From positions 1-34,239 of IMG/VR virus record IMGVR_UViG_2663762996_000010: a DNA stretch of 34,239 bases; one strand, written 5' to 3'. Origin of the DNA: a virus. Lineage: Duplodnaviria; Heunggongvirae; Uroviricota; Caudoviricetes. Below, in pieces: positions 6,001-6,835 of this stretch. Each line of letters starts with the position of its first letter. Within the stretch, counting starts at the first letter, position 1. The position numbers were made by a program.

Positions 6001-6835
6001 AGAGAACCAGTAATTCTTCCTGGTAGCTTTCCTTTGTAGGTTATCCACACATTCTGCGCCTCTAAAATTACGGGGCGCTTTTCCGGCGACTGCTCATCCC
6101 CTTCACATAACCCGGCAGCAACATCCAGGAAGACCTGTCTGATGCTCCTTCTGGCTGCTGCCTCATAAAACCCCAGCGCGGCACCTTCAACACGGTCCAG
6201 CGAGATGTCCAGGTCAAAAATTTCACCGTCAAAGCGTTTTTTGTCCCGTAACGCTAAAGTTACCGTAACTTTATTCTCAAAATTGCGGATCCCTTTCACA
6301 ATCAGTTCATAGTTTTGAGTCATTGAATTACTCTCCCCGTGCAGCCTTACGCTTGTCTTCTCTGATTTTGAAGTACAGATTTGTCAGATAAGTCAGGAAG
6401 CCCAGAACCAGACTCCCCAGTACACCAATCGCAGCCCACTGTGACGGACTGACCTGATCAAGCCACTGTAAAAACCAGTAGCCAGCACTGCCTGCGGAGG
6501 TGCCATAGGCAATGCCCGTTGAAATTTTGTCCATGGATTTCATAGCCTCACCTCCGCAAATAACGGATGGCGTAGTTTTACACTGAGAAATGAAAGGGAT
6601 TTGAAAAGAAAAGCCCGCAAAAGCGGGCGAAACAATATATACAGTAAGGAAAGCACTCTATCCAACAAACCACCCACAGTTAATCGGAATAAAAGCAGAG
6701 TGCTTATGAATGATCGCCTGCCCGAAGGTTAGTATTTCTGCACAGCAATTTTGCAAAAAAAAGCGATCATTCATAACTTAAACGTCTTTCAGTCACTCCG
6801 GGATTTCCCATCATCGCAGACTGAAAGACTCTAAC

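What the first reader, a model, noticed from the sequence alone, without database searches (positions are those of the whole stretch)
6545..6835. Highly structured leader between the tRNA cluster and the holin: nested inverted repeats around a promoter-like element and a terminator
In 290 bp there is a 10-11 bp inverted repeat (GTCTTTCAGTC / GACTGAAAGAC) enclosing a GGGAAATCCC palindrome, a perfect 14-bp inverted repeat pair (6704..6717 and 6763..6776) bracketing a TTGCAA-N16-TACTAA promoter-like element, a further 8-bp inverted repeat, and a GCCCGC-AAAA-GCGGGC terminator about 70 nt before the holin start. This fits a PR'/qut/tR' late-control module displaced downstream of the tRNAs, but the inverted repeats around the promoter are unusual and could be a protein-binding switch or a structured small RNA.
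Basis: seen in the sequence. Interest (0 to 1): 0.45.

Follow-up and report, generated by a model that had tools for sequence, protein, structure and literature searches.

The report
Structured RNA trailing prophage tRNA operon

Summary
They lie on the minus strand, which is the late-gene strand.

They are RNA helices. Across 24 non-redundant relatives, 98.6% of cells pair, against about 45% when the partners are slid. Ten pairs show compensatory double changes. There are 193 G-U cells against 9 A-C cells.

The region is not PR'/qut/tR'. That module lies directly after Q, at 7372..7266. The element occurs with three unrelated Q families. The "promoter" inside hairpin 2 is part of conserved helices, and its -10 is not conserved.

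The tRNA cluster has its own conserved sigma-70 promoter at 7183..7155. The unit is therefore promoter, then tRNAs, then SL1, SL2 and SL3, then terminator. It is a moron-like cassette between tR' and the holin.

I read the region as the structured 3' trailer of this tRNA operon. Its terminator shields the lysis genes in lysogens and is read through by Q-modified polymerase. What the hairpins themselves do is inferred only (RNA end protection or processing, or a released stable RNA).

The element matches no Rfam 15 family, no Pas sRNA, STnc100 or put RNA. It is present in 530 of 5,426 complete E. coli genomes, in Stx2f phages and in HK639. Interest is moderate.

The parts
6830..6835 (-). Short linker (GUUAGA) between the encoded CCA end of tRNA-Gly and hairpin 1. 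It is A/U-rich and is a candidate RNase E cut site (inference).
   Evidence: In relatives a hairpin always starts 1-7 nt after a tRNA 3' end.
6784..6829 (-). SL1. It has a 13-bp lower stem, an internal loop GAUGA / GA that fits the kink-turn sequence signature, and a UGGG/CCCG upper stem capped by AAAU.
   Evidence: helices 1-2; 2 pairs with double compensatory changes. L005/L007 carry a further T-A to C-G change.
6704..6776 (-). SL2. A 14-bp outer stem encloses an inner helix UUUUUGCA/UGCAGAAA with a conserved loop AAAUUGCUG, and a small CC-UUCG-GG hairpin.
   Evidence: helices 3-5; 5 pairs with double changes. The inner part is replaced in L035, L113, L151 and L165, while an outer stem is kept, conserved in sequence in L113 and L165 and different in L035 and L151.
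6729..6756 (-). Judged not to be a promoter.
   Evidence: The -10 lacks T at its last position and varies among relatives. The -35 lies in helix 4. It was not reported by the promoter scan.
6651..6705 (-). SL3. It has a covarying lower stem (AAGCACUCU/AGAGUGCUU), a 7-nt bulge on the 5' side, and an upper stem UCCGAUUAAC / GGUUUGUUGGA with loop UGUGGGU. The motif UAAC-N2-4-GGGUGGUUUGUUGG recurs as an independent module in other prophage late regions.
   Evidence: three pair types at one position. Model R2.
6603..6628 (-). Intrinsic terminator of the tRNA operon (GCCCGC UUUU GCGGGC + UUUUCUUUUC). It works on the minus strand only.
   Evidence: A terminator of different sequence sits 21-34 nt after the SL3 motif in most relatives.
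6544..6602 (-). Leader of the phage-21-type holin, including the Shine-Dalgarno GGAGGUGAGG. It belongs to the holin module, not to the structured element.
6836..7145 (-). tRNA cluster: CAU (Met by ARAGORN, annotated tRNA-Ile in relatives), an atypical argN-like 'Lys(UUU)', Thr(UGU) and Gly(UCC).
7146..7183 (-). The tRNA operon's own promoter: TTGCAA (7183..7178), a 17-nt spacer, TATTAT (7160..7155), and a GC-rich discriminator CCTGCGCCC that reaches the tRNA 5' end.
   Evidence: The hexamers and the exact 17-nt spacing are kept in 30 of 31 distinct upstream segments, with 25 different spacers.
7266..7372 (-). The likely real late-control module. PR' is TTGCAA 7372..7367 plus TATATT 7349..7344, overlapping the end of Q. 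tR' is the stem-loop 7288..7273 plus a U7 tract reaching 7266.
   Evidence: There are weak isrK/isrJ-like matches at 7267-7340.

Best explanation
The region is the structured 3' trailer (external transcribed spacer) of a small tRNA operon that the prophage carries as a self-contained cassette between tR' and the lysis genes. The cassette has its own sigma-70 promoter with a GC-rich discriminator (7183..7146). This is followed by four tRNAs, then three conserved RNA hairpins SL1-SL3 (6829..6651), then an intrinsic terminator (6628..6603). In a lysogen, transcripts from the tRNA promoter end at this terminator, so constitutive tRNA transcription does not run into holin and endolysin. In lytic growth, Q-modified polymerase coming from PR' (7372..7344) reads through tR', the tRNAs and this terminator. 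tRNA processing (RNase P and RNase E) necessarily cuts the transcript at the tRNAs. The hairpin that abuts the tRNA-Gly 3' end then becomes the 5' cap of whatever lies downstream. In lysogens that product is a stable RNA of about 225 nt, closed by a 5' hairpin and a 3' terminator. In lytic growth it is the lysis mRNA. Shown here: the RNA structure, its strand, its conservation and covariation, the tRNA promoter, the terminator, and independence from Q type and holin type. Inferred: the processing, the end-protection and insulation roles, and any further activity of the released RNA.
For: The helices are conserved. In 24 non-redundant variants, 98.6% of cells are paired against 40-48% when partners are slid. 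Ten pairs have changes on both sides. The covariation score is 0.235 against 0.05-0.10 for slid controls. The strand is the late-gene strand: 193 G-U cells against 9 A-C cells. Fold z-score is -6.3. The element follows a tRNA 3' end in nearly all loci; among about 129 context windows cut from roughly 125 loci, tRNA-Gly(UCC) is the last tRNA in about 110. In variants that lack SL1, SL2 starts 1 nt after the CCA. The tRNA promoter hexamers and 17-nt spacing are conserved in 30 of 31 distinct contexts, with 25 different spacers. A terminator of varying sequence lies 21-34 nt after the SL3 motif in 41 of 62 distinct variants by a strict rule, and about 10 more keep a weakened CCGC/GCGG stem. The cassette occurs downstream of three Pfam Q families and upstream of three holin families, and behind several different tR' sequences or ORFs. 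There is one copy per prophage locus: 100 matches in 100 loci. A separate PR'/tR' lies directly after Q.
Against: No expression, processing or stability data are available. Simple end protection or insulation does not need three hairpins. It also does not explain why loop and bulge sequences are as conserved as they are (GCGAUGAUGGG...CCGGAGUG, UUGCAAAAUUGCUGUG, GGGUGGUUUGUUGG); that suggests an unknown specific partner. SL3 also occurs alone, without a tRNA or a following terminator, in other prophage late regions (L139, L140, L152, L157, L159). Its role therefore cannot be purely 'tRNA trailer'. Phylogenetic depth is shallow: two main clades, and only Escherichia and Shigella among species representatives. 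The compensatory changes therefore reflect few independent events. Part of the apparent invariance comes from the exact patterns used to collect relatives.
Confidence: 0.5

Rival explanations
1. Dedicated trans-acting or decoy RNA. The trailer of about 225 nt (or a processed part of it) is the functional product: a prophage-encoded regulatory RNA of the Hfq or ProQ class, or a sponge for a protein or RNA. On this view the tRNA operon merely provides its promoter and its 5' end.
For: It is a discrete unit with a promoter upstream and a terminator downstream. Loops and bulges are strongly conserved. The precedent of tRNA-trailer sRNAs (3'ETS-leuZ) is from my own knowledge. Abundant prophage sRNAs lie between Q and the lysis genes: STnc100 lies next to the element in HK639, and the Pas sRNAs are described in PMC8550237 and bioRxiv 10.64898/2026.05.13.724894.
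Against: The single-stranded stretch before the terminator, where Hfq-type seeds usually lie, is the least conserved part. Almost all conserved sequence is base-paired. SL3 occurs in other phages without any terminator. There are no expression or interaction data.
Confidence: 0.2
2. The region is the late promoter PR' with its Q-utilisation site and tR', displaced downstream of the tRNAs. The inverted repeats act as a protein-binding switch on DNA.
For: The hexamers TTGCAA-N16-TACTAA are followed about 100 nt later by a terminator.
Against: A better PR'/tR' lies directly after Q. The -10 lacks the last-position T and is not conserved; HK639 has TGCTGA. The element is found with three unrelated Q families. 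G-U against A-C asymmetry and compensatory changes indicate RNA, not DNA, as the selected form.
Confidence: 0.03
3. Conditional attenuator (riboswitch-like or T-box-like). The hairpins sense a signal, for example tRNA-Gly charging, and decide whether transcription from the tRNA promoter passes the terminator into the lysis genes.
For: A structured RNA lies directly upstream of a terminator. SL1 carries a kink-turn-like signature. SL3 contains GGGUGGU, which resembles the T-box core (resemblance from memory). A tRNA-Gly gene is adjacent.
Against: No T-box or other riboswitch match appears even at E <= 10. No conserved alternative pairing competes with the terminator: type A has none, and type B has only 7-8 bp between the SL3 3' arm and the terminator 5' arm. 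The modules occur independently of each other and of a terminator. Read-through into holin from a constitutive promoter would be lethal.
Confidence: 0.05
4. put-like antiterminator RNA. The nascent hairpins bind RNA polymerase and make it terminator-resistant, as in HK022 and HK639 early operons.
For: HK639, a put-using phage, carries the element. The element consists of stem-loops with bulges upstream of several terminators.
Against: Model R1 finds nothing in HK022 or at the annotated HK639 putL. put RNAs are about 70 nt with two stems and lie downstream of the early promoters (PMC9378689); this element is about 190 nt with three hairpins. An antiterminator behind a constitutive tRNA promoter would express the lysis genes in lysogens. 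Q is present in every locus examined.
Confidence: 0.04
5. Small protein gene. A 38-codon ORF on the late strand (MNDRFFLQNCC...GWFVG, ATG at 6774) is the conserved feature.
For: An ORF of 26-46 codons covering SL2-SL3 can be found in several variants and often ends in GWFVG.
Against: The start changes from ATG to TTG or is lost, and no Shine-Dalgarno precedes it. Single-base indels between clades break the frame. Ends differ: 27, 38 and 44 codons. Variants include a 2-nt insertion inside the 'GWFVG' codons in L050. The substitutions are paired compensatory changes rather than third-position changes.
Confidence: 0.03

Closest known systems
3'ETS-leuZ, the trailer of the E. coli glyW-cysT-leuZ tRNA operon released as an sRNA sponge (from my own knowledge)
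   Same: It lies between the last tRNA of an operon and the operon's intrinsic terminator. Its 5' end is expected to come from tRNA 3' processing. It would be made whenever the tRNA promoter fires.
   Different: 3'ETS-leuZ is about 50 nt, Hfq-bound and chromosomal. This element is about 190 nt of hairpins plus a terminator, is prophage-borne, shows no sequence similarity, and has no evidence of release, Hfq binding or targets.
STnc100 / PasD family (Rfam RF02076) and the Pas sRNAs of EPEC prophages
   Same: [quoted passage not shown] In HK639, L004 and L005, STnc100 lies just downstream of this element.
   Different: No match to RF02076 in the window. Model R1 with filters off finds nothing at the PasA and PasC loci of E2348/69. 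PasA is on the strand opposite to the lysis genes.
PR'-tR' short transcripts (lambda 6S RNA; StxS of Stx phages, PMC7547250)
   Same: A short terminated RNA in the late leader, read through by Q-modified polymerase.
   Different: Those start at PR' immediately after Q. The window has that module separately at 7372..7266. The element here starts at a tRNA end and is independent of Q family.
put antiterminator RNAs of HK022 and HK639 (PMC9378689)
   Same: cis-encoded stem-loop RNAs with bulges in lambdoid phages. HK639 carries both.
   Different: put RNAs are about 70 nt with two stems and lie downstream of the early promoters. No sequence or structure match was found. The genetic logic is incompatible with a constitutive promoter ahead of lysis genes.
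RNase III processing hairpins of phage T7 early mRNA, and 5' stabiliser hairpins such as the ompA leader (from my own knowledge)
   Same: Long interrupted hairpins (17-26 bp with internal loops) in intergenic positions of a long phage transcript. They are plausible processing or end-protection signals.
   Different: No cleavage data exist. Such hairpins need no conserved loop sequences, whereas these loops are conserved.
ROOL and GOLLD, large structured RNAs often next to tRNA genes in prophages (from my own knowledge)
   Same: Structured non-coding RNA of unknown function adjacent to phage tRNA genes.
   Different: Those are 500-800 nt with complex folds, occur in other phyla, and are in Rfam. 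There is no match here. This element is three modular hairpins.

Membership tests
Lambdoid PR'/qut/tR' late-control module | A sigma-70 promoter with conserved hexamers that starts the late transcript, immediately downstream of Q | tested here: not met
   The hexamers inside SL2 have a poor -10 (TACTAA, no terminal T) that varies among relatives, with TGCTGA in HK639. A proper candidate lies at 7372..7344, overlapping the end of Q.
Lambdoid PR'/qut/tR' late-control module | Specific pairing of the site with one Q family | tested here: not met
   The same element lies downstream of PF06323, PF06530 and PF03589 Q proteins.
Intrinsic (Rho-independent) terminator | A G+C-rich stem-loop followed by a U tract on the transcribed strand | tested here: met
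   6628..6603 on the minus strand: 6 G-C pairs, a 4-nt loop, then UUUUCUUUUC. Terminators of other sequence occupy the same position in relatives.
tRNA-operon 3' external transcribed spacer RNA (3'ETS-leuZ type) | Lies between the last tRNA and the terminator of an operon that has its own promoter | tested here: met
   tRNA-Gly ends at 6836 and the terminator is at 6628..6603. The promoter at 7183..7155 is conserved in 30 of 31 contexts.
tRNA-operon 3' external transcribed spacer RNA (3'ETS-leuZ type) | Released by RNase E, stable, chaperone-bound, and base-pairs with other RNAs | not testable with these tools
   Needs Northern blots or RNA-seq in rne and hfq backgrounds, and RIL-seq or CLIP.
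Any Rfam 15 family (including STnc100, isrK/isrJ, T-box, GcvB, AgvB, ribozymes) | A covariance-model match | tested here: not met
   cmscan at E <= 10 over 5800-8200 gives nothing in 6651-6835. Only chance-level hits appear on the terminator. The same holds for relatives.
Pas sRNAs (PasA/PasC) of EPEC prophages | Sequence or structure similarity to the E2348/69 loci | tested here: not met
   R1 with filters off gives a best hit of 11 bits on L167 and L168. PasA reads on the opposite strand.
put antiterminator RNA | An RNA of about 70 nt with two stems downstream of an early promoter, similar to HK022 putL/putR or HK639 putL | tested here: not met
   R1 finds no match in HK022 or at HK639 34187-34312. 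The architecture differs (PMC9378689).
put antiterminator RNA | Terminator suppression that depends on the beta' zinc-binding domain | not testable with these tools
   Requires transcription assays.
Riboswitch or T-box attenuator | A conserved, mutually exclusive antiterminator pairing with the terminator | tested here: not met
   The best upstream partners of the terminator 5' arm differ between clades and are weak in type A, at -4.4 kcal/mol.
Kink-turn motif (SL1 internal loop) | A canonical stem, a 3-nt bulge, and tandem G.A/A.G pairs followed by a non-canonical stem | tested here: inconclusive
   The sequence fits: GC | GAU | GA-UGGG opposite CCCG-GA | GU (6817..6795). The GA dinucleotides persist in variants found through SL3 (L148, L156). 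Most relatives were collected with a pattern that contains this loop, and kinking cannot be computed here.
Small protein-coding gene | A conserved start, frame and stop | tested here: not met
   Start, frame and length all differ between variants.

The most novel reading that the evidence does not exclude
SL1, SL2 and SL3 are not passive structure. They are independent, sequence-specific RNA modules of a so-far undescribed kind that lambdoid phages shuffle within their late operons. SL1 has a kink-turn-like bulge, SL2 is a Y-shaped hairpin with an invariant loop, and SL3 carries UAAC...GGGUGGUUUGUUGG. On this reading each module is a docking site for a host or phage protein (a nuclease, a chaperone, RNA polymerase, or a defence or anti-defence factor). 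Together they would control lysis-gene expression or tRNA-cassette function independently of Q.
Probability: 0.15. Interest if true: 0.7.

Novelty: new member of a known kind. Interest (0 to 1): 0.45.

Why it matters
The element is common. It is in 530 of 5,426 complete E. coli genomes, in Stx2f-converting phages and in the laboratory phage HK639. It is unannotated and sits at the gate to the lysis genes.

If the model is right, it shows how a prophage can carry a constitutively transcribed tRNA cassette directly upstream of lethal genes. A dedicated terminator would make this safe. The model also shows how the late mRNA could survive being cut by tRNA processing.

It adds a candidate family to the growing set of prophage late-region RNAs (StxS, STnc100/PasD, PasA/C). 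It also gives a defined alignment and covariance model for annotation.

The independent recurrence of SL3 in other late operons suggests an unknown RNA-recognition step in lambdoid late gene expression.

Tried and rejected
1. Rfam scans of the window and of relatives, at E <= 10 and E <= 0.1, found nothing for the element.

2. Identity with Pas sRNAs: I read the two papers and fetched the PasA and PasC loci of E2348/69. There was no similarity.

3. Homology with put RNA: no hit in HK022 or at HK639 putL.

4. SL3 in lambda, HK022 or E2348/69 late regions: absent.

5. Internal promoter: not conserved.

6. A T-box-like or riboswitch attenuator: no conserved antiterminator.

7. A small ORF: the frame is not conserved.

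8. A MITE or other repeated element: median one copy per genome, up to five, and one per prophage locus.

9. Literal sequence search of the literature gave only unrelated hits. Keyword searches for a tRNA-trailer sRNA in prophages found no description.

10. A short-query BLAST for SL3 in cultured phages was too insensitive to be informative.

11. The King et al. 2011 HK639 paper is not held in the library. I could not check whether its authors commented on this region. Their GenBank record annotates only terminators there.

12. The resemblance to GcvB (a shared GGUCUGCGAU) comes from memory, and Rfam gives no GcvB match, so I treat it as chance.

Full report
**Orientation.** The late genes of this prophage read on the minus strand. 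In order they are:
- a Q antiterminator (8051..7356, Pfam PF06323);
- four tRNA genes (7145..6836);
- the region in question (6835..6545);
- a phage-21-type class II holin (6543..6328, PF04971), a DUF1327 gene, a lysozyme and an Rz-like gene.

**Observation.**
- the 11-nt repeat 6784-6794 / 6819-6829 around GGGAAATCCC;
- the perfect 14-nt repeat 6704-6717 / 6763-6776 around TTGCAA-N16-TACTAA (6756..6729);
- a third repeat, which is 9 nt long, at 6651-6659 / 6697-6705;
- the terminator GCCCGC-UUUU-GCGGGC-UUUUCUUUUC at 6628..6603, 70 nt before the holin ATG.

As RNA of the late strand, 6835..6600 folds into three hairpins plus the terminator at -83.1 kcal/mol. This is 6.3 standard deviations better than dinucleotide shuffles, and 0 of 200 shuffles fold as well.

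**Relatives.** The 291 bases occur in 530 of 5,426 complete E. coli genomes, always on chromosomes, mostly at 95-100% identity.
- They are in four sequenced coliphages at about 98% identity, including the Stx2f phage phi467. There the order is stxAB, tRNA-Thr, tRNA-Gly, element, holin.
- They are in phage HK639 at 77% identity.
- An exact-pattern scan of IMG/VR gave at least 120 contigs with 64 distinct variants.
- The same kind of scan over one genome per species found the element only in E. coli and Shigella flexneri, apart from the number of chance hits expected.

**Structure.** I aligned 24 non-redundant variants, which fall into two main clades: window-like and HK639-like.
- RNAalifold returns the same three hairpins.
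- On that structure 98.6% of cells form standard pairs, against 40-48% when the 3' partners are slid by 1-3 columns.
- Ten pairs carry changes on both sides, spread over SL1, SL2 and SL3.
- The covariation score is 0.235, against 0.05-0.10 for the slid controls.
- G-U pairs outnumber A-C oppositions by 193 to 9. The selected molecule is therefore RNA of the late-gene strand, not duplex DNA or the antisense RNA.
- Caveats: the structure was predicted on this strand; the clades are few; and part of SL1 was fixed by the search pattern.

**Anatomy of the hairpins.**
- SL1 (6829..6784) has a 13-bp lower stem and an internal loop GAUGA/GA flanked by G-C/G-U on one side and UGGG/CCCG on the other. 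This is the sequence signature of a kink-turn. I could not test it beyond sequence.
- SL2 (6776..6704) has a 14-bp outer stem. It encloses a helix UUUUUGCA/UGCAGAAA with an invariant loop, and a small second hairpin.
The -10 lies in the junction.
- SL3 (6705..6651) has a covarying lower stem, a 7-nt bulge and a G-U-rich upper stem.

**Why it is not PR'/qut/tR'.**
- A candidate PR' (TTGCAA-17-TATATT, 7372..7344) overlaps the end of Q. It is followed by a strong terminator (7292..7266), giving a short RNA of about 70 nt with weak isrK/isrJ-like scores.
- Several relatives show an analogous terminator between Q and the cassette. One of them, L139, also shows the promoter and Q directly upstream.
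- The element lies downstream of three unrelated Q families (PF06323, PF06530, PF03589) and upstream of three holin families.
- The -10-like hexamer has no terminal T. It reads TGCTGA, TACTGA, TATCAA or TAACAA in relatives.

**What it belongs to.** In nearly all loci the element starts 1-7 nt after a tRNA 3' end, usually tRNA-Gly(UCC). This holds even where that tRNA is only a remnant, as in HK639.

Upstream of the first tRNA there is a promoter: TTGCAA (7183..7178), 17 nt, TATTAT (7160..7155), then a GC-rich discriminator running to the tRNA 5' end. Hexamers and exact spacing are kept in 30 of 31 distinct upstream segments, although the spacer has 25 different sequences and the DNA further upstream is unrelated. 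This is strong comparative evidence for a functional stable-RNA promoter.

Downstream, a terminator of varying sequence lies 21-34 nt after the SL3 motif in most variants.

The unit is therefore promoter, tRNAs, SL1-SL2-SL3, terminator. It is a moron-like cassette, present once per prophage locus: 100 matches in 100 loci.

**Modularity.** A scan with the SL3 motif showed that the hairpins are separable.
- SL3 occurs alone in late regions of other prophages: between tR' and the next gene, after a moron, or after Rz (L139, L140, L152, L157, L159).
- SL2+SL3 can follow tRNA-Gly directly (L142, L144, L146).
- SL3 can pair with a different SL2 (L151, L165).
- SL1+SL2 occur without SL3 (L005, L007), and SL1 occurs with another hairpin (L035).
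- The SL3 lower stem shows three pair types at one position across these contexts.
- SL3 is absent from lambda, HK022 and the EPEC prophages I checked.

**Comparison with known RNAs.**
- Nothing in Rfam 15 matches.
- In HK639, L004 and L005 the conserved block just downstream of the element is STnc100 (RF02076). STnc100 is absent from the window.
- The Pas sRNAs of EPEC are the best-described RNAs of this neighbourhood (PMC8550237; bioRxiv 10.64898/2026.05.13.724894). I fetched the PasA and PasC loci and found no similarity, and PasA reads on the opposite strand.
- HK639 and HK022 put RNAs do not match.
- Literature searches by sequence and by keywords found no description of the element.

**Mechanism.** Shown: the element is an RNA structure on the late strand, part of a tRNA operon with its own promoter, and it ends in an intrinsic terminator just ahead of the holin.

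Inferred:
- In lysogens the terminator stops tRNA-promoter transcripts before the lysis genes.
- Q-modified polymerase reads through.
- tRNA processing cuts the RNA at the tRNA-Gly 3' end. The abutting hairpin then caps the 5' end of the downstream product. That product is either a stable by-product of about 225 nt or the lysis mRNA.

The conserved loops, and the free-standing SL3 copies, argue that at least one specific partner exists that I cannot name. I therefore give the overall model 0.5 and keep a dedicated trans-acting or decoy RNA as the main rival at 0.2.

An attenuator model fails for lack of a conserved antiterminator. A coding model fails on frame conservation.

**Verdict.** This is an unannotated, covariation-supported RNA element of a familiar general kind (a prophage late-region or tRNA-trailer RNA). 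It is widespread in E. coli prophages and its function is unknown. Interest is moderate.

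Noticed in passing
window 7266-7372 (-): This is the likely true PR'-tR' module. The promoter overlaps the Q stop codon and is followed by a strong terminator. It predicts a constitutive short RNA of about 70 nt, analogous to StxS or lambda 6S. It scores weakly against isrK (22.7 bits) and isrJ (24.5 bits); the HK639 counterpart scores 34.6 bits against isrJ.
   Followed up: partly
window 7146-7183 (-): The prophage tRNA cluster has its own sigma-70 promoter with a GC-rich discriminator of the stable-RNA type. 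Hexamers and 17-nt spacing are conserved across 30 of 31 different upstream contexts.
   Followed up: yes
window 6992-7068 (-); relatives in the loci: The second tRNA of the cluster ('Lys UUU', 77 nt) has an argN-like body and C instead of U at position 33. It is not recognised by the Rfam tRNA model. In relatives the same slot carries anticodons TCT, AAA, TAA, TTA (a stop-codon reader), CAG, or unreadable loops. It is either a decaying tRNA or one with an unusually variable anticodon.
   Followed up: partly
window 7225-7232 (-): A Chi site (GCTGGTGG) lies between tR' and the tRNA promoter. It is retained at the same place in many otherwise different relatives, in line with the Chi-rich lambdoid phages described in PMC12315714.
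   Followed up: no
L001 (HK639) 2754-2959; L005 2724-2916: In HK639-type loci an STnc100 sRNA (RF02076, 52.6 and 69.9 bits) follows the element. The leader between Q and the holin there is a chain of RNA modules separated by terminators.
   Followed up: partly
L139 4848-4912, L140 7996-8060, L152 12598-12662, L157 4462-4526, L159 5573-5637: Hairpin SL3 (UAAC-N-GGGUGGUUUGUUGG with a covarying lower stem) occurs on its own in intergenic positions of other prophage late operons, with no tRNA and no following terminator.
   Followed up: partly
L001 (HK639) 2440-2495; L003 and L005 about 2440-2505: Where the tRNA-Gly gene has been lost, its 3' half (...GGTTCGATTCCCGCTGCCCGCTCCA) is still kept directly in front of SL1. 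This suggests that the tRNA end and the hairpin are inherited, or required, together.
   Followed up: no
window 5973-6323 (-): A DUF1327 gene sits between the phage-21-type holin and the lysozyme. The holin begins MKSMDK, the dual-start pattern of S21-type holins.
   Followed up: no
L113 5558-5739 (-): A sok antitoxin RNA (RF01794, 65.7 bits) lies in one related prophage contig.
   Followed up: no
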